Shown piece by piece: positions 10,166-14,042 of a DNA stretch of 64,000 bases. The stretch is from positions 187,488 to 251,487 of IMG/VR virus record IMGVR_UViG_3300027896_005002, one strand, 5' to 3'. This stretch comes from a virus. The notes under the pieces were generated by a model. That model did no database searches, was not told the origin of the DNA, and worked only from the letters and a program-made list of their open reading frames with translations. The stretch's first letter is position 1. Each line of letters opens with the position of its first letter. The position numbers were made by a program, and so were the translations under genes.

Positions 10166-11344
10166 TTAAAACCGTTTTGGATCGTTCTTTTTAACTGAAG
10201 TTGAAGTTGAAGTATTAAGTAATTTATCAAATTGAATTGAAAGACCAAGTTGTAGCATTGCTCCAAGATAAACTGTTTCTTGAGGTCCTGCTGTTATTTT
10301 CGGAAGATCAATGATGGATAACATGAATCGAGTGATATTTGATTCAAGTCGTACATAATCTGCCGAAATATCGATGTTTAGCATTTTGAGCATTTGATCA
10401 CGGTTAACAGCTCCGAGAGCGGCAGGAAGTGCAGTATTTTCCAAAACTGTTTTAATACTATGTGCTTCATATGCAAGCGCCCTTGCAATAGGAATGCCAA
10501 AACCGGCAAAGATTTTATTAATTACATTAATAACAGTTTCAGCAGAGTCTCTTACAGCTGAAGCATCGGGTGGTGCCATCATAGGAGCCATTAAATTATT
10601 TGGAGAAAGAGCTGCCATAATTGCGCTGGTTATTGCAGCAGGATTAGACCCACCTTGTATCCATGCTTGTTGCCAAGCTGAAAGTTGTTTGTAAAAATCA
10701 CTGAGTGTTATCCAAAGTTTGTCATCCAATTTTGTCAAGAAACTTTTCTTTCGAGTTTGTGTTACAAAAGAACCTTCAATACCTAATACTGATAATACAT
10801 CAGCATAGTTCCTTTTGATGACTAAATTACGAAGAGTGAAATATTCTGTGCCACAAGGAATTTCGTTACTTTCAGCAAAATTCTCCATTTTATCTTTGAT
10901 AACATCAATGATATCGAATAAGCCAAGCCTGTTTGCAATTGCCGATCTCATTGCGCAAATTATTTCCATTGGTCCAACTTTTAATTCTCCACCTGTTTTG
11001 AGAGCTTTAATAAAACTCTCATCATCAGGTAATGACGGCAAAACATCCAAAGAAAAAGAAGCTGACGATGTTGGTGCTATCGGTGGAACAGCCTTTGGTC
11101 CACGTAGTAAATTTACATTCTTTTTCAAAACACCACTCGGAATTTTGAGTGCTGCAAGCGCATTTTTAATATCTTCAAATGATGCAGCTTCTTCATCAGC
11201 CAATATCATCAAAGCATCATCACTTGGAGAGCCTACCACTGTTAATAATGCTTCATTAACATCACTTAAATTCTTGTTAACTGCTTTTGCAAAAGCACCA
11301 ACTTTTGTGTCCCAACCTTCAGGCACTTTGATTTCTTCACTCAT
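10166..11344 (-). CDS. Hypothetical protein, 392 aa, Ala/Leu-rich
   Basis: Long ORF, protein-like composition; the antisense ORFs 10494-10694 and 10815-11360 are treated as shadows. Confidence 0.5.
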   Translation of the reverse strand: MSEEIKVPEGWDTKVGAFAKAVNKNLSDVNEALLTVVGSPSDDALMILADEEAASFEDIKNALAALKIPSGVLKKNVNLLRGPKAVPPIAPTSSASFSLDVLPSLPDDESFIKALKTGGELKVGPMEIICAMRSAIANRLGLFDIIDVIKDKMENFAESNEIPCGTEYFTLRNLVIKRNYADVLSVLGIEGSFVTQTRKKSFLTKLDDKLWITLSDFYKQLSAWQQAWIQGGSNPAAITSAIMAALSPNNLMAPMMAPPDASAVRDSAETVINVINKIFAGFGIPIARALAYEAHSIKTVLENTALPAALGAVNRDQMLKMLNIDISADYVRLESNITRFMLSIIDLPKITAGPQETVYLGAMLQLGLSIQFDKLLNTSTSTSVKKNDPKRF

Positions 11345-13026
11345 ACAACCTCCTGTTTAAAGTAAATTATTTCATCATCACCATCAAATTCTGTTTTATT
11401 ATAGGAAAATTGAACTATATTATTATTCCATTGTACAATTGTGTTTTTTGAATAAGGATCTATTATTTTGCAAATATCATCAGTGTCGTTAATTGCCTGA
11501 ATTAAACTTTCTTCAGGTGTTGAATATCTTGTTACATGAACTGAATATAATAATGTCTTAAAACATGATGGATCATCATTTAATAAAAGAACTGCTTTTA
11601 CTATACCTGGAACAAATTCAATGTTTGGTTTACCATACATTATTCGTAATTCTGCAAATGACAGAATCTTTTCAACTCCCATAGCAGCATAATCTTGAAA
11701 AGTACGATAATCATTATTTTTGACAGAATTCCTAATTATTTCTCCCCATGATTTGGGTATACCATCATACTCTGTACAAAATAAATGTTTTTGTTCTATA
11801 ATGGGCATTTCCATATCTGAAAATAATTCATGGACATCAGGATTACTTGATGCTACAGTTATTAATTTTTCTTTTTCGGGCATCATAGCAAAATGCATTC
11901 GTAATTCTTTTTCAGTTTTGTAAAAAGGTGTCAAATAAAATTTAAAATCATCTTTTGAATAACCTAATTCAAGCAAAGATTGAGCGACCATTTTCATCAC
12001 TAGCCATTTAGGTATTGGATCACGATCTGTTATTGTATATGATCGTTGTATTGAAATTATGAGCTTATAGCCCAAATCAAGAATACGCGTCATATATTTA
12101 ATATGACCACTATGAGGAATACCCATCCGTGCAGGGAATAAAACATATTTGTCACTTGAAGATTTTATTCCTCGATGTTTGATATATCGATATGTTTGAT
12201 TTTCTAAATATGAATTAGTAAATACTTCTGTACACGTTTTAAGTGTTGGTCGTTCAACAGGATTTAATTTTAACATTTTTGAAATAATTACAAATTCATC
12301 TTTTACATTAGCTTCTTTCGATAAAGTTGGATAATGTCTATCGGCACATTCGCACAAATCCATAGTTCTAGGTTCAAATGGTGTTGTATCAAATGGATGT
12401 ATACCTGTAAAAAGCTCATGTGCAATTATACCAAGTTGGAAGACTATTGATTTTTCACTAACTATATGATTAAATACGGTTTCAGGTGCAGCATATCGAG
12501 GATGTGAAATTATACCAATTTGTTCAGTATCATTTGTTTTTAATTGAGTAAGACCCAAATCAATTATATACACATTACTAATAGAAATTAAAACATTTTC
12601 AGGCTTTATATCTAAATATAGTATTTGTTTTTTATGAAGTAATTCTATTTTTAAAATTAATGTACCTAAAATAAAAGATACATCGTTTGGTAACAATAAA
12701 TTATCAGGTTGACAATAGTTTGCCAACGACTGACCATATGTAAAAGAAGTTTTAATAAACTTATTACCGTCAATATCAACAGTACCATAATATTGAGGTA
12801 AGAGTGGAACAGGATGATTTACTAAATACTCATATAATTCATCTTCATTTAAATAATCTCGAAGATCTTTTTTGTAATTATAAACTTCTTTTAATATTTT
12901 GAAAATACCATCTGTGTCACGTATTAATAAAACAGTCGACCTTTTTTCATGAACACTTTCGAAGCTTTGCTGTAATACAGAAATTAAAGAAATATTGTGA
13001 AGTTTACACCATTGATTATAATTCAT
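11341..13026 (-). CDS. Fusion protein: N-terminal eukaryotic-type Ser/Thr protein kinase domain plus C-terminal HxGH nucleotidyltransferase (cytidylyl/adenylyltransferase, NMNAT-like) domain
   Basis: Kinase catalytic loop YLDIKPENVL, DLG (DFG-equivalent) IIDLGLT, APE motif YAAPE; C-terminal FPARMGIPHSGHIKY ((H/T)xGH motif of the alpha/beta phosphodiesterase nucleotidyltransferase superfamily). Confidence 0.65.
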   Translation of the reverse strand: MNYNQWCKLHNISLISVLQQSFESVHEKRSTVLLIRDTDGIFKILKEVYNYKKDLRDYLNEDELYEYLVNHPVPLLPQYYGTVDIDGNKFIKTSFTYGQSLANYCQPDNLLLPNDVSFILGTLILKIELLHKKQILYLDIKPENVLISISNVYIIDLGLTQLKTNDTEQIGIISHPRYAAPETVFNHIVSEKSIVFQLGIIAHELFTGIHPFDTTPFEPRTMDLCECADRHYPTLSKEANVKDEFVIISKMLKLNPVERPTLKTCTEVFTNSYLENQTYRYIKHRGIKSSSDKYVLFPARMGIPHSGHIKYMTRILDLGYKLIISIQRSYTITDRDPIPKWLVMKMVAQSLLELGYSKDDFKFYLTPFYKTEKELRMHFAMMPEKEKLITVASSNPDVHELFSDMEMPIIEQKHLFCTEYDGIPKSWGEIIRNSVKNNDYRTFQDYAAMGVEKILSFAELRIMYGKPNIEFVPGIVKAVLLLNDDPSCFKTLLYSVHVTRYSTPEESLIQAINDTDDICKIIDPYSKNTIVQWNNNIVQFSYNKTEFDGDDEIIYFKQEVV

Positions 13027-14042
13027 TTTACTAATATTTTTTTCATCAATGCATCAATTTCTTTTTGAGGTCTTTCAATATATTTCCCAAATCGTTGTAT
13101 CATGTCCTGAGCTCGTTGATCAGTTTCATTTCCAAAAATCGGTTCTTTCAACCATTTTTCATAAAGAAATGACAGAAATAATTCAACACCTTGCATACCA
13201 GTATTTCGAGCGATAAGAAAGAGTAAAGCATTACCTGTTATAGCAGCTCTGTGTGCAAATTCTTTGATTGATGAAAGATCAATAAGATCGAATGGTACAC
13301 GATCATCTTTTAAAAATTGTGTCTGTAATTTACCATTAGTGGCATCCTCACCACAACCAATGACAGTAAATGTAGTAAAAGTTTTATATACCGCTTCTTT
13401 TGATTTTCTCCAATCACGTTGATGAGGACATCCGTCATCAGATTCCATGCCCATTCCATGACCAACAACATCTGTTGCCAAATATAAATGTTTTTCTTTT
13501 GCATTGCCAAAATTTAAACCACAAGCATCCCAAAGAGCACATTCCCATGCTTCGGCTCCGTCATAACCATTTGCAGGTAATACATTTTTGCATGAAGAGT
13601 ATAATGCTTTATCTGCTTTTTTTCCGGGCTTGAGATAATCAATCGATTGAATGAATTTATCTTTGTCTCCATGATCACTACAGTACATAAAAGCAATTTG
13701 TGAAGAAGCATCTAATTGTTCAAGAACACTTATCAAGTAACCTGAGCTTTCTCTGAGATGTTGGGCAATTTTTGCATTTGATCCCGAGTTGTCAATTAAT
13801 ACAATATGTAATCGTTCAACATTTGCATCAGGTTTCGTAATATTTCTTGTAACTAAACTTTCATCATAAAGATCATCAGTTTCTCTTTTCTCTCGAGGTT
13901 CTGCTGATTTAATATGAACTTCATCACGAGCAGACTTAACTGACTTGGCTCTTTCTTTATAATAAGTATCACTATCACTACTTAAACTAGATCTACTTCT
14001 GCTCAAATACGAGCTGTAATCTTCATAAGATTTTCCGCTCAT
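13023..14042 (-). CDS. von Willebrand factor A (vWA) domain protein
   Basis: MIDAS DxSxS motif (VLIDNSGSNA) with following vWA-like beta-alpha pattern; ATGA overlap with the kinase gene downstream. Confidence 0.6.
   Translation of the reverse strand: MSGKSYEDYSSYLSRSRSSLSSDSDTYYKERAKSVKSARDEVHIKSAEPREKRETDDLYDESLVTRNITKPDANVERLHIVLIDNSGSNAKIAQHLRESSGYLISVLEQLDASSQIAFMYCSDHGDKDKFIQSIDYLKPGKKADKALYSSCKNVLPANGYDGAEAWECALWDACGLNFGNAKEKHLYLATDVVGHGMGMESDDGCPHQRDWRKSKEAVYKTFTTFTVIGCGEDATNGKLQTQFLKDDRVPFDLIDLSSIKEFAHRAAITGNALLFLIARNTGMQGVELFLSFLYEKWLKEPIFGNETDQRAQDMIQRFGKYIERPQKEIDALMKKILVK

What the first reader, a model, noticed from the sequence alone, without database searches (positions are those of the whole stretch)
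11341..14042. vWA protein translationally coupled to a Ser/Thr-kinase/HxGH-nucleotidyltransferase fusion
The 561-aa protein joins a eukaryotic-like protein kinase domain (HRD-like DIKPEN, DLG, APE) to a cytidylyl/adenylyltransferase-type domain with the (H/T)xGH motif (NMNAT/PPAT-like). This domain combination is not one I recognise as described. It is immediately preceded (ATGA overlap) by a vWA/MIDAS protein. vWA-kinase-phosphatase modules are known bacterial signalling and defence-associated systems, and a histidine phosphatase gene lies at 57205-57906. This may be a phage-encoded signalling or NAD-metabolism effector.
Basis: partly seen in the sequence, partly recalled or inferred. Interest (0 to 1): 0.6.

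Follow-up and report, generated by a model that had tools for sequence, protein, structure and literature searches.

The report
Kinase-fused NAD enzyme with vWA partner
A tightly coupled three-gene unit in a probable giant phage encodes a metal-binding adaptor (vWA) protein, an enzyme joining a protein kinase to a NadM-type NAD-synthesis enzyme with a dead Nudix domain, and an unknown helical protein. The same undescribed trio recurs in CPR bacteria beside NAD-metabolism genes.

Summary
On the minus strand, a 339-aa gene (13023-14042) and a 561-aa gene (11341-13026) overlap by ATGA.

- **339-aa protein:** a vWA fold with an invariant DxSxS, shown by structure only; no sequence model detects it.
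- **561-aa protein:** three domains, not two. These are a Hanks-type Ser/Thr kinase, a HIGH-superfamily nucleotidyltransferase, and a Nudix-like domain whose catalytic box is degenerate. All kinase catalytic residues are invariant in 74/74 homologues.
- **C-terminal half:** homologous to bifunctional NadM-Nudix NMN adenylyltransferases (hhalign 99.8%, E 6.5e-29).
- **Distribution:** the trio is conserved in about 25 loci, mostly Patescibacteria (CPR) genomes and a few huge phage-like contigs. It often lies beside NadE, NAPRTase or NrtR genes.
- **Absences:** it is missing from GenBank phages, IMG/VR, BFVD and PADLOC. An exhaustive search of 1.84 billion proteins found about 100 representatives, and every full-length one is kinase-fused.

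It is not a TerY-P triad, because it has no PP2C phosphatase.

The most likely function is NAD(+) synthesis or homeostasis coupled to phosphorylation signalling. The link to NAD is supported by context; the roles of the kinase, vWA protein and helical protein are inferred.

The parts
13023..14042 (-). Gene 1: 339-aa vWA/MIDAS protein. N-terminal two-helix hairpin (res 6-46), vWA core (res ~77-255), C-terminal helical bundle (res 262-336).
   Evidence: ORF. AF2 pLDDT 92, pTM 0.92. Foldseek PDB top hits are all vWA domains: integrin beta-I, SpaC, TFIIH p44/Ssl1, VWF-A3, Rpn10, NorD. 74 homologues, none with a Pfam domain. Directly upstream of the fusion in 23 of 27 loci.
13779..13793 (-). MIDAS motif D84-N-S86-G-S88 of the vWA protein
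   Evidence: D84, N85, S86 and S88 are invariant in 70 homologues. T190-D191 sits at the end of strand beta4.
13023..13026 (-). ATGA stop/start overlap between the vWA gene and the fusion gene
   Evidence: Sequence read.
11341..13026 (-). Gene 2: 561-aa tri-domain protein (Ser/Thr kinase + NadM-type nucleotidyltransferase + degenerate Nudix-like domain)
   Evidence: ORF. More than 100 full-length homologues. AF2 pLDDT 93.5, pTM 0.93.
12202..13026 (-). Hanks-type protein kinase domain (res 1-275). Non-RD catalytic loop Y-L-D139-I-K-P-E-N144, D156-L-G, A-P-E182. Atypical Gly-poor ATP loop.
   Evidence: Pfam Pkinase E 7e-24. Foldseek top hits Aurora/PKA/PDK1, TM (target-normalised) ~0.7. K46, E61, D139, D156 and E182 in 74/74; N144 in 68/74; R259 in 73/74. 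Alignment view.
11617..12150 (-). NadM-type HIGH-superfamily nucleotidyltransferase domain (res ~293-470). Motifs F-P-A-R300-M-G-I-P-H305-S-G-H308, R335-D336-P337, S-S-N395-P and S426-W-G-E-I-I-R432.
   Evidence: NCBIfam NF002243 NMNAT E 8e-6, below cut-off. Profile against PDB: the only consistent hits are archaeal NMNAT 1ej2/1m8x/4yp5, E 0.04, with motif-for-motif alignment. hhalign against NadM-Nudix proteins: 99.6-99.8%, E 8e-24 to 6.5e-29. R300, H305, H308, D336, P337, N395 and R432 in 74/74. Rossmann-like beta-alpha order in the AF2 model.
11344..11616 (-). Degenerate Nudix-like domain (res ~471-561); catalytic Nudix box not conserved
   Evidence: The contiguous hhalign alignment runs from the NTase into the outgroup's Nudix domain. 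The outgroup's perfect GX5EX7REUXEEXGU box aligns to window 498-518. The domain alone gives prob 74.6%, E 2.7e-5. The RE/EE positions are variable or gapped in the family; only P504, E505, L512 and G516 are kept.
11341..11344 (-). ATGA stop/start overlap between the fusion gene and the 392-aa gene, with AGGAGG 8 nt upstream
   Evidence: Sequence read.
10166..11344 (-). Gene 3: 392-aa orphan protein, inferred to be largely alpha-helical from its sequence (no structure was predicted). Few invariant polar residues, so probably a non-enzymatic partner, scaffold or substrate.
   Evidence: Homologous to the 434-aa gene next to the vWA gene in CPR genomes (39% id, E 6e-85). Present in 16 loci. 47 homologues, all hypothetical, no Pfam. 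No PDB sequence relative. Invariant residues are mostly P/F/W/G.

Best explanation
This is a translationally coupled three-gene module. Gene 1 encodes a MIDAS-bearing vWA protein. Gene 2 encodes a single polypeptide in which a catalytically intact Hanks-type Ser/Thr protein kinase has been grafted onto the N-terminus of a NadM-Nudix-type enzyme. Gene 3 encodes an orphan 392-aa protein.

Shown here: the domain identities, the conservation of the catalytic residues, the degeneracy of the Nudix box, the conservation of the trio, and its neighbourhood.

Inferred, with my estimate for each step:
1. The NadM-like domain adenylylates NMN or NaMN with ATP to give NAD(+) or NaAD, as its relatives do (about 55-60%).
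2. The dead Nudix-like domain no longer hydrolyses ADP-ribose. It serves instead as a ligand-binding or regulatory domain for ADPR or NAD, as in NrtR and in the TRPM2 NUDT9H domain (about 35%).
3. The kinase is a true protein kinase. It couples NAD/ADPR status to phosphorylation of itself or of the two co-translated partners, and the vWA MIDAS site holds an acidic or phosphorylated segment of a partner (about 35-40%).

In CPR bacteria the module sits within NAD and nucleotide salvage operons. One lineage of huge phage-like genomes appears to have captured it once, losing the N-terminal extension in most members. There it plausibly helps control or sustain the NAD(+) pool during infection. This genome also carries an NAD-consuming PARP 4 kb away.
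For: - **Kinase:** Pfam Pkinase E 7e-24. The fold matches Aurora, PKA and PDK1. K46, E61, D139, D156 and E182 are invariant in 74/74 and the subdomain-XI Arg R259 in 73/74, which is a complete ePK core including the APE-Arg pair typical of protein kinases.
- **NTase:** the only families hit are cytidylyl/adenylyltransferase and archaeal-type NMNAT, with no rival family. PDB profile hits are all archaeal NMNAT, with the GRMQPFHRGH, R-D-P and SGNP motifs aligned.
- **Outgroup:** an exhaustive search of 1.84 billion representatives finds, beyond the family itself, proteins that scan as CTP_transf_like + NUDIX, the NadM-Nudix architecture. hhalign against them gives 99.8%, E 6.5e-29 over 240 columns.
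- **Catalytic motifs:** R300, H305, H308, D336, P337, N395 and R432 are invariant.
- **Dead Nudix:**
- **NAD context:** NrtR-type Nudix regulator in L001, L002 and L009. A NadE-NadD-type fusion lies directly upstream in Falkowbacteria loci L005 and L006; it was domain-annotated in L005, and a similar ~815-aa ORF clusters with it in L009. NAPRTase + NadE flank the trio in phage contig L031. PARP lies at 17758-19206 in the window.
- **Coupling:** two ATGA overlaps. The vWA gene is directly upstream of the fusion in 23 of 27 loci and the 392-aa family is present in 16.
- **Precedents:** NrtR has an inactive Nudix-like effector domain that binds ADPR and is structurally close to NadM's Nudix domain (PMC2330246). 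Phages are known to rebuild NAD(+) with NadM-Nudix or NadR-like enzymes (PMC9503650, PMC13464706).
Against: - Scores against curated NMNAT models are far below cut-off (25.7 against 127 bits). Canonical NadM proteins are mostly not retrieved by the family profile. This is a divergent subfamily whose substrate could have changed.
- The Trp that, from my memory of the archaeal NMNAT structures, stacks on nicotinamide is not conserved in the aligned column. R335 (equivalent to R47) is Arg in only 43/74.
- In Falkowbacteria a separate NadD-type domain is already fused to the adjacent NadE, so the NadM-like domain is not obviously needed for NAD synthesis there.
- No NadV or NAPRTase was found in the window: all ORFs of at least 400 aa and most nearby ORFs were scanned. 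No PnuC-type transporter turned up among the ORFs scanned, but smaller ORFs were not all covered.
- The kinase's Gly-rich loop is degenerate in the phage lineage.
- Nothing identifies the kinase's substrate. No phosphatase is part of the module. The roles of the vWA protein and the 392-aa protein are purely inferential.
- PARP adjacency is not conserved in other loci.
Confidence: 0.5

Rival explanations
1. Sequential small-molecule pathway, as a functional analogue of NadR, CoA synthase or PAPS synthase. The kinase-fold domain would phosphorylate a metabolite rather than a protein. It would act either before the NTase (nicotinamide riboside to NMN) or after it (NAD to NADP, phosphorylating the ribose of the AMP just installed). 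The fusion would then channel two consecutive steps.
For: Kinase + HIGH-NTase fusions that catalyse consecutive steps are a recurrent theme. NadR and its phage NARP3 version are documented in PMC13464706 and PMC9503650; RibF, HldE, CoA synthase and PAPS synthase I cite from general knowledge. Both active sites are intact and the domains pack as one rigid body (pTM 0.93). The module lies in nucleotide and NAD salvage contexts, including a uridine-kinase-family gene just downstream in L005. One homologue also hits the APH small-molecule-kinase family (P0085).
Against: The domain scores as Pkinase, not as APH or choline kinase. It keeps a full activation segment, the APE motif and the subdomain-XI Arg, features of protein-substrate kinases that small-molecule ePK-like kinases generally lack (general knowledge). 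The best structural matches are bona fide protein kinases. This reading does not explain the obligatory vWA and 392-aa partners.
Confidence: 0.15
2. A TerY-P-like conflict (defence or counter-defence) switch. The vWA protein and the kinase would form a metal- or phosphorylation-dependent sensor, and the NadM-Nudix part would be the effector, making or consuming a nucleotide signal or altering NAD(+) to kill or rescue the cell.
For: vWA + STK adjacency is the core of TerY-P triads. TerY-P-like modules with other C-terminal fusions on the kinase act as anti-phage systems (PMC11090510). The kinase domain's best PADLOC hits are defence kinases: mad6, PD-T4-6 and MkoA. In phage contig L031 a PP2C and a second kinase lie 7 kb from the trio. 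The module is patchily distributed and shared between phage-like contigs and cells.
Against: There is no PP2C in the window, and a homologue of L031's PP2C is absent from the other loci searched. The vWA and 392-aa proteins hit no PADLOC model, and the kinase hits are generic domain-level matches. The module shows none of the effector swapping or high variability typical of conflict systems. Architecture and gene content are uniform and the vWA protein is unusually conserved (46% mean column identity). The neighbours are metabolic genes (NadE, AdSS, uridine kinase).
Confidence: 0.15
3. The NTase and Nudix-like domains are purely regulatory nucleotide-binding modules attached to a signalling kinase, with no NAD synthesis.
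For: The Nudix half has already lost catalysis. The domain is strongly divergent from canonical NMNATs. A separate NadD-type domain is present next door in some genomes.
Against: Both HxGH histidines, R300, D336-P337, N395 and the S...R432 motif are invariant in 74/74 sequences that are only 33-68% identical overall. That level of conservation is what catalysis predicts and is more than ligand binding alone needs.
Confidence: 0.1
4. Two-step protein nucleotidylation. The kinase places a phosphate on a Ser/Thr of a partner (the vWA or 392-aa protein), and the HIGH-family NTase, whose known acceptors are all phosphates or sulfate, transfers AMP onto that phosphate to give a protein-linked ADP.
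For: The logic rests on architecture only. The kinase product could be the NTase acceptor, as in other kinase/HIGH-NTase fusions. Two dedicated, co-translated protein partners exist. The two domains form a rigid assembly.
Against: There is no precedent and no direct evidence. NadM-Nudix ancestry and the NAD gene context point to NMN or NaMN as the acceptor.
Confidence: 0.06

Closest known systems
[quoted passage not shown] Examples are Synechocystis slr0787 and Francisella NadM. Phage versions work with NadV/Nampt in NAD salvage (NARP2).
   Same: The fusion's residues 290-561 are homologous over both domains in the same order, NTase then Nudix (hhalign 99.8%, E 6.5e-29). The HxGH and C-terminal S...R motifs are kept. 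Members occur in phages and next to NAD genes (PMC9503650).
   Different: The Nudix box is degenerate, so hydrolysis is predicted to be lost. A Hanks-type kinase is fused at the N-terminus. The protein is always paired with a vWA protein and usually with a 392-aa orphan. No NadV was found in the window. Scores are far below curated NMNAT cut-offs.
NadR and the phage NARP3 enzyme Bas30_86 (NMNAT + P-loop nicotinamide-riboside kinase, working with PnuC)
   Same: One polypeptide combines a kinase and a HIGH-family NMNAT. The phage-encoded version serves to rebuild NAD(+) (PMC13464706).
   Different: NadR's kinase is a P-loop small-molecule kinase placed C-terminal to the NTase. Here the kinase is a eukaryotic-type protein-kinase fold placed N-terminal. 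The NTase is of the NadM type, not the NadR type. No PnuC partner was found among the ORFs scanned; the partners are a vWA protein and the 392-aa protein instead.
TerY-P triad (TerY-like vWA + PP2C phosphatase + Ser/Thr kinase fused to a zinc ribbon or OB fold)
   Same: A stand-alone MIDAS vWA gene is operonic with an active Ser/Thr kinase that carries a C-terminal extra domain, in a three-gene unit (PMC11090510).
   Different: The third gene is an orphan helical protein, not a PP2C. The kinase's C-terminal fusion is NadM-Nudix-like. The vWA protein hits no PADLOC model. The genomic context is metabolic.
NrtR (Nudix-related transcriptional regulator of NAD metabolism)
   Same: It contains a Nudix-like domain close to NadM's that has lost catalysis and senses ADP-ribose (PMC2330246). 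That is the role proposed here for residues 471-561. NrtR genes also sit next to the module in several CPR genomes.
   Different: NrtR couples the sensor to a DNA-binding domain. Here the coupling would be to a kinase and an NTase. Ligand binding is untested here.
Archaeal NMNAT (M. thermoautotrophicum, PDB 1ej2/1m8x/4yp5)
   Same: It is the only solved family detected by the C-terminal profile. R11/H16/H19, R47-D-P and SGNP align with R300/H305/H308, R335-D336-P337 and SSN395P.
   Different: The match is weak (E 0.04, 16 bits) and covers about 105 residues. The segment around the nicotinamide pocket differs.

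Membership tests
Hanks-type (eukaryotic-like) Ser/Thr protein kinase, Pfam PF00069 | Score above the Pfam gathering threshold | tested here: met
   85 bits against a 31.7 cut-off, E 7e-24, residues 43-266.
Hanks-type (eukaryotic-like) Ser/Thr protein kinase, Pfam PF00069 | Catalytic residues: beta3 Lys, alphaC Glu, catalytic-loop Asp and Asn, DFG Asp, APE Glu, subdomain-XI Arg | tested here: met
   K46, E61, D139, D156 and E182 in 74/74; N144 in 68/74; R259 in 73/74.
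Hanks-type (eukaryotic-like) Ser/Thr protein kinase, Pfam PF00069 | Gly-rich loop GxGxxG | tested here: not met
   The window has QQSFESVHEKRS between beta1 and beta2. CPR members have GxxGxxxxS. The loop is atypical across the whole family.
Hanks-type (eukaryotic-like) Ser/Thr protein kinase, Pfam PF00069 | Bilobal protein-kinase fold | tested here: met
   The top 50 Foldseek PDB hits are all protein kinases, E ~1e-13, TM (target-normalised) up to 0.77.
Hanks-type (eukaryotic-like) Ser/Thr protein kinase, Pfam PF00069 | Phosphotransfer to protein Ser/Thr | not testable with these tools
   Requires a biochemical assay.
NadM-type NMN adenylyltransferase (HIGH superfamily) | N-terminal (H/T)xGH motif in a GxxxPxHxGH context | tested here: met
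   F-P-A-R300-M-G-I-P-H305-S-G-H308. R300, H305 and H308 are invariant and align to GRMQPFHRGH of 1ej2.
NadM-type NMN adenylyltransferase (HIGH superfamily) | C-terminal SxxxxR-type (ISSTxxR-like) motif at a helix start | tested here: met
   S426-W-G-E-I-I-R432, invariant, at the start of helix 427-436. It aligns to the outgroup's ...sdlR.
NadM-type NMN adenylyltransferase (HIGH superfamily) | Score reaching the curated cut-off of the NMNAT models (NF002243, TIGR01527) | tested here: not met
   25.7 against 127 bits and 16.8 against 181 bits. 7 of 23 and 2 of 23 family members hit at E<=0.01.
NadM-type NMN adenylyltransferase (HIGH superfamily) | Profile-level homology to NadM / NadM-Nudix proteins | tested here: met
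   hhalign prob 99.6-99.8%, E 8e-24 to 6.5e-29. The outgroup was confirmed as CTP_transf_like + NUDIX.
NadM-type NMN adenylyltransferase (HIGH superfamily) | Conservation of nicotinamide-recognising residues / NMN specificity | tested here: inconclusive
   The outgroup's conserved Trp column aligns to a non-conserved position. H378-F379, two residues on, are nearly invariant. No ligand model is available.
NadM-type NMN adenylyltransferase (HIGH superfamily) | NMN/NaMN + ATP -> NAD/NaAD activity | not testable with these tools
   Requires an enzyme assay.
Nudix hydrolase (ADPR pyrophosphatase domain of NadM-Nudix) | Nudix box GX5EX7REUXEEXGU with catalytic Glu residues | tested here: not met
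   The aligned positions are S/L, Q/R, A/H, N/R/gap and D/R/gap. Only P504, E505, L512 and G516 are retained.
Nudix hydrolase (ADPR pyrophosphatase domain of NadM-Nudix) | Homology of the domain as a whole | tested here: inconclusive
   Supported as part of the contiguous 240-column alignment. The domain alone gives prob 74.6%, E 2.7e-5 over 49 columns. A separate fold search of this domain was not possible.
vWA domain with MIDAS | vWA (Rossmann-like alpha/beta) fold | tested here: met
   AF2 pLDDT 92. All 42 Foldseek PDB hits with E<=1e-3 are vWA domains.
vWA domain with MIDAS | MIDAS motif DxSxS...T...D | tested here: inconclusive
   DxSxS (D84, S86, S88) is invariant, and D191 lies at the end of beta4. 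The middle Thr could not be assigned with confidence.
vWA domain with MIDAS | Detection by sequence models (Pfam VWA families) | tested here: not met
   No Pfam, PHROG, NCBIfam or PADLOC hit. The profile has no PDB sequence hit.
TerY-P triad | PP2C phosphatase gene in the operon | tested here: not met
   Absent from the window operon. A homologue of L031's PP2C is not found in the other loci. L031's own PP2C lies 7 kb away on the opposite strand.
TerY-P triad | Kinase fused C-terminally to a zinc ribbon or OB fold | tested here: not met
   The C-terminal fusion is NadM-Nudix-like.
TerY-P triad | Match to defence-system models | tested here: not met
   PADLOC gives no hit for the vWA protein or the 392-aa protein. 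The kinase hits only generic kinase models.
Phage NAD(+) reconstitution pathways NARP2 / NARP3 | Partner gene: NadV/Nampt (NARP2) or PnuC (NARP3) | tested here: not met
   No NAPRTase/Nampt family hit in any window ORF of at least 400 aa or in the ORFs around the module, and no PnuC-type hit among the ORFs scanned. The rest of the 416-kb contig could not be examined. Related phage contig L031 does carry NAPRTase + NadE beside the trio.

The most novel reading that the evidence does not exclude
The kinase and the NadM-like nucleotidyltransferase act in series on a protein rather than on a metabolite. The kinase would phosphorylate a Ser/Thr of the co-translated vWA or 392-aa partner, and the HIGH-family transferase would add AMP to that phosphate. 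The result would be a protein-linked ADP, which is an undescribed two-step post-translational modification. The dead Nudix domain would act as reader or regulator.

A milder version is that the ePK-fold domain is a new type of NR kinase or NAD kinase, making this a non-homologous replacement for NadR.
Probability: 0.1. Interest if true: 0.85.

Novelty: new variant of a known kind. Interest (0 to 1): 0.55.

Why it matters
NAD(+) is a central battlefield between phages and bacteria. The known phage NAD-rebuilding enzymes are NadM-Nudix with Nampt, NadR-like with PnuC, and Adps/Namat.

This module shows a NadM-Nudix enzyme rebuilt in a different way. Its hydrolase half is inactivated, a eukaryotic-type protein kinase is bolted on, and it is locked into a unit with a vWA protein and an orphan protein. 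That implies a direct link between NAD(+) synthesis or sensing and Ser/Thr phosphorylation in prokaryotes, which has not been characterised.

The module is essentially confined to CPR/Patescibacteria and a clade of huge phage-like genomes. It could therefore serve as a marker linking such phages to CPR hosts. It also adds to the very sparse knowledge of cofactor homeostasis in these reduced episymbionts.

The family is compact (about 100 representatives in 1.84 billion proteins), models with high confidence, and has clear catalytic residues to mutate. The hypotheses are directly testable in vitro.

Tried and rejected
1. **DNA search against phages.** Megablast of the region against GenBank phages gave no match.
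2. **C-terminal half, single-sequence searches.** Pfam, PHROGs and phmmer against PDB gave nothing meaningful. Family profiles were needed.
3. **Fold searches of the full model.** Searches against PDB and BFVD were swamped by kinases and could not classify the C-terminal half. AFDB50 was unavailable.
4. **Search for the fusion elsewhere.** An IMG/VR pattern scan found no relative. tblastn against 50,697 phage records found only kinase-half matches for the fusion and nothing for the vWA protein.
5. **PADLOC.** Only generic kinase matches, so I rejected filing the module under a known defence system.
6. **Histidine phosphatase as third partner.** The gene at 57205-57906 is real but lies 43 kb away and is never linked elsewhere, so I rejected it.
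7. **392-aa family.** Pfam, PADLOC, a PDB profile search and a profile search of 5.8 billion proteins returned only hypothetical orthologues.
8. **Other recurrent CPR neighbours.** The 308-aa and 504-aa families have no PDB sequence relatives.
9. **NrtR operator.** I looked for a palindromic operator between the NrtR gene and the downstream genes in three CPR loci. No inverted repeat was found at the settings used, which is uninformative because the NrtR core is only GT-N7-AC.
10. **Promoter and terminator scan around the operon.** Matches were no more frequent than in shuffled sequence.
11. **PARP as a conserved partner.** It is not adjacent to the module in the other loci.
12. **371-aa upstream ORF (14224-15339) as a fourth member.** It is conserved only in the syntenic phage contig L029 (62% id) and not elsewhere, so I rejected it.

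Full report
**Observation.** The minus strand carries a 339-aa ORF (13023-14042) and a 561-aa ORF (11341-13026). Their junction is an ATGA stop/start overlap. The three genes form one translationally coupled unit. A consensus promoter/terminator scan around it was uninformative.

**Genome context.** The window is AT-rich (about 30% GC) and almost all genes are on one strand. No tRNA was found. The genes include:
- a ribonucleotide reductase with an intein
- a UvsX/RecA-like recombinase with a LAGLIDADG intein
- an SbcC/gp46-like nuclease subunit
- a gp32-like SSB
- a CCA-adding enzyme
- a eukaryote-type topoisomerase IB
- a full WGR-PARP

The identical fusion protein is on record on a 416,029-bp contig. 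There is no near-identical DNA in GenBank phages. The SbcC-like protein is only 25-29% identical to myovirus homologues. I read this as a novel huge phage-like genome. No capsid or terminase lies in the window, so that call is probable rather than proven.

**Kinase domain.** Pfam Pkinase matches residues 43-266 (E 7e-24). The AlphaFold2 model built on 74 homologues is excellent (pLDDT 93.5, pTM 0.93). Its best PDB matches are Aurora, PKA and PDK1. Across the 74 sequences, which are 33-68% identical to the window protein, K46, E61, D139, D156 and E182 are invariant. N144 and the subdomain-XI Arg R259 are nearly so. The catalytic loop is non-RD (Y/F-L-D). The Gly-rich loop is atypical and lacks glycines in the phage lineage. 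The complete activation segment and the APE-Arg pair argue for a protein kinase rather than a small-molecule kinase.

**C-terminal half.** Single-sequence searches fail. NCBIfam gives weak hits only to archaeal-type NMNAT and the generic cytidylyl/adenylyltransferase domain: 13/23 and 7/23 family members, with no competing family.

A profile of residues 286-561 hits only archaeal NMNAT structures in the PDB. The match is weak (E 0.04) but aligns motif for motif: GRMQPFHRGH with ARMGIPHKGH, R47-D-P with R335-D336-P337, and SGNP with SSN395P.

I then searched that profile against 1.84 billion representative proteins. Only 135 score E<=1e-3. About 100 are the same family; every full-length member carries the NTase C-terminal to a kinase, and the rest are fragments. 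The weak tail consists of proteins that Pfam annotates as CTP_transf_like + NUDIX, which is the NadM-Nudix architecture.

Profile-profile comparison of residues 290-561 with eleven of these gives probability 99.8%, E 6.5e-29 over 240 columns. The alignment runs through the NTase and into the Nudix domain. The outgroup's perfect Nudix box aligns to window residues 498-518. There the family keeps only P504, E505, L512 and G516, and the catalytic RE and EE positions are variable or deleted. In contrast, R300, H305, H308, D336, P337, N395 and R432 of the NTase are invariant in 74/74.

The protein is therefore a kinase fused to a NadM-Nudix homologue, with a live NTase and a dead Nudix domain.

**vWA protein.** No sequence model detects it. 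The model (pLDDT 92) matches only vWA domains in the PDB. D84-x-S86-x-S88 and T190-D191 are invariant or nearly so. The family is unusually conserved (46% mean column identity). It also has an invariant H/C/D-rich stretch (H124, C168, H195, C205, D202) that I could not interpret.

**392-aa protein.** This is an orphan. No Pfam, PADLOC or PDB relative exists, and all 47 homologues are annotated as hypothetical. The invariant residues are mainly P, F, W and G, which points to a structural partner or substrate rather than an enzyme.

**Conservation of the module.**
- Homologues of the fusion and of the vWA protein occur on contigs of the same lengths.
- In 27 non-redundant loci, the vWA gene lies directly upstream of the fusion in 23 and the 392-aa family is present in 16. 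Gene order is vWA-fusion-392 in the window, L029 and L031, and in the gene table of P0003's contig, with extra small ORFs interleaved in L030 and no 392 homologue detected near the module in L003. It is 392-vWA-fusion in most CPR genomes.
- GTDB representatives carrying it are almost all Patescibacteria: Falkowbacteria, Uhrbacteria, Minisyncoccota and Shapirobacteria. Several auto-binned MAGs carry doubtful labels.
- CPR versions have an additional N-terminal region of roughly 150-200 aa.
- A neighbour-joining tree places all phage-context sequences in one clade nested among the CPR forms. The method is rough and the tree is midpoint-rooted.
- The module is absent from IMG/VR by pattern scan, from 50,697 GenBank phage records and from BFVD as a full architecture (TM normalised by query <=0.40).

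**Link to NAD metabolism.**
- In CPR genomes L001, L002 and L009, an NrtR-type regulator (NUDIX + NrtR winged helix, E 2e-27) heads the cluster.
- In Falkowbacteria L005 and L006, an ORF of about 820 aa lies immediately upstream of the trio. In L005 it scans as CN_hydrolase + NAD_synthase + CTP_transf_like, a NadE-NadD-type fusion. A similar ~815-aa ORF clusters with it in L009.
- Downstream in L005 lie a uridine-kinase-family gene, a second kinase-like gene and an adenylosuccinate synthetase.
- In L031, a phage contig with rIIA/rIIB, NAPRTase and glutamine-dependent NadE flank the trio. A PP2C and another kinase lie beyond them.
- In the window a PARP lies 4 kb upstream.
- NrtR regulons typically cover nadM, nadV and nadE, and NrtR's Nudix-like domain is an inactive ADPR sensor close to NadM's (PMC2330246).

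These contexts support an NAD-related role for the NTase. Because the adjacent NadE in Falkowbacteria carries its own NadD-type domain, they do not show that the fusion is the only adenylyltransferase.

**Comparison with known systems.** The virus-wide survey of NAD/ADPr systems lists NadM (fused to Nudix) and NadR (fused to a P-loop kinase) and reports that NadM phages always carry NadV. It reports no protein-kinase fusion (PMC9503650). NARP3 is PnuC plus a NadR-like enzyme (PMC13464706). TerY-P triads are vWA + PP2C + STK fused to a zinc ribbon or OB fold (PMC11090510). Here the PP2C, the zinc ribbon or OB fold, and any PADLOC match for the vWA protein are all missing. I therefore file the fusion as a NadM-Nudix derivative and a Hanks-type kinase, but not as a member of TerY-P, NARP2 or NARP3.

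**Mechanism.** The domain identities, the catalytic-site conservation, the dead Nudix box, the coupling and the context are shown. The rest is inferred:
- The NTase makes NAD or NaAD (about 55-60%).
- The dead Nudix domain binds ADPR or NAD as a regulatory input (about 35%).
- The kinase phosphorylates itself or its two partners, with the vWA MIDAS acting as the docking site (about 35-40%).

The rivals are a sequential small-molecule pathway (NR kinase or NAD kinase plus NMNAT), a TerY-P-like conflict switch, a purely regulatory NTase, and two-step protein nucleotidylation. Each could be settled by the assays listed under next steps.

**Verdict.** The finding is real and more interesting in detail than first described. 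It is an undescribed, conserved three-gene module built around a kinase-NadM-(dead)Nudix enzyme and shared between CPR bacteria and a lineage of huge phage-like genomes. Its parts are known kinds, so I rate it a new variant of a known kind, with interest 0.55.

Noticed in passing
window 17758-19206 (-): A complete eukaryote-type poly(ADP-ribose) polymerase (WGR + PARP regulatory + PARP catalytic domains; Pfam E 3e-30) lies 4 kb upstream of the module. PARPs are rare in phages. It is an NAD(+) consumer close to a putative NAD(+) synthase, but the adjacency is not conserved in other loci.
   Followed up: partly
window 22027-22695, 22704-23153, 29537-29959, 29960-30313 (all -): Four ORFs share a nearly identical N-terminal module of about 40 aa (MNHLAIIQSEFIKEARKW..L....Q.AYLKRHPKSKR) and then diverge completely. 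The same leader occurs on a weakly WGR-annotated gene in the related contig L029 (19547-20062). It might be a targeting or packaging tag, or a shared interaction domain. I have no explanation.
   Followed up: partly
window 1475-2572 (+) and 2594-3841 (+): An adjacent Orn/DAP-decarboxylase-like gene and a saccharopine-dehydrogenase-like gene, the only sizeable plus-strand block here. The pair resembles carboxy(nor)spermidine decarboxylase/dehydrogenase, which would mean a virus-encoded polyamine pathway.
   Followed up: no
window 43262-46849 (-) and 58749-61157 (-): Two intein-containing genes: the ribonucleotide reductase large subunit (Intein_splicing domain) and the UvsX/RecA-like recombinase (LAGLIDADG endonuclease + HINT).
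   Followed up: no
window 20714-22030 (-): A eukaryotic-type topoisomerase IB (Pfam Topoisom_I, E 1e-40). It is also present in syntenic contig L029, in the same order: TopoIB, SLT, HD, ..., vWA, fusion.
   Followed up: partly
window 15555-16472 (-); L029 3595-4506; L003 12190-13200: An OB-fold + HD-domain protein (YhaM-like architecture; weak Cas3-HD similarity) lies near the module in three phage-like contigs but not in CPR genomes. It could be lineage synteny or a phage-specific accessory.
   Followed up: partly
L031 438-6934 and 15989-17137: This phage contig (rIIA-like and rIIB genes present) carries a block of a 621-aa kinase, PP2C, Ogg-like glycosylase, glutamine-dependent NadE and NAPRTase next to the trio. 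It also carries a CTP_transf_like + CoaE (PPAT/dephospho-CoA-kinase-like) fusion, so the phage encodes a cofactor-biosynthesis island.
   Followed up: partly
L005 4243-6708 (Falkowbacteria): An 821-aa tri-domain protein, CN_hydrolase + NAD_synthase + CTP_transf_like, which is NadE fused to a NadD-type adenylyltransferase. It lies directly upstream of the module; a close homologue is in L006 and a similar ~815-aa ORF in L009.
   Followed up: partly
L001 3579-7107 and equivalents in L002, L005, L006, L009, L015, L017, L023: A second recurrent gene set accompanies the trio in CPR genomes but is absent from the window. It comprises a ~380-aa divergent kinase-like protein (9 loci), a 308-494-aa orphan (8 loci) and an adenylosuccinate-synthetase homologue (6 loci). 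Its function and its relation to the trio are unknown.
   Followed up: partly
L003 17201-19744 and 3131-4570: The 589-kb phage-like contig encodes an 847-aa protein with a major-vault-protein shoulder domain and a Band_7/SPFH protein within 8 kb of the module.
   Followed up: no
window-wide; tree: The only cellular homologues of this module are in CPR/Patescibacteria, and the phage copies nest within them. That suggests this 416-kb genome and its relatives (262-, 302- and 589-kb contigs) may infect CPR bacteria. A CPR host for phages of this size would be notable. I know of no such report, and I made no direct host prediction (CRISPR spacers or tRNAs).
   Followed up: partly
window 13023-14042 (-), protein residues 120-211: Beyond the MIDAS motif, the vWA family has an invariant His/Cys/Asp-rich set (H124, D126, C168, H195, D202, C205, W211, within ...TDVVGHGMGM..DDGCP.QRDW). 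This suggests a second metal site or an unexpected catalytic feature.
   Followed up: no
window 8517-9449, 6073-6807, 4677-5546: An ATP-grasp of the R2K clade, a radical-SAM protein and a papain-family (C1) peptidase lie just downstream of the module. Their roles are unknown.
   Followed up: no
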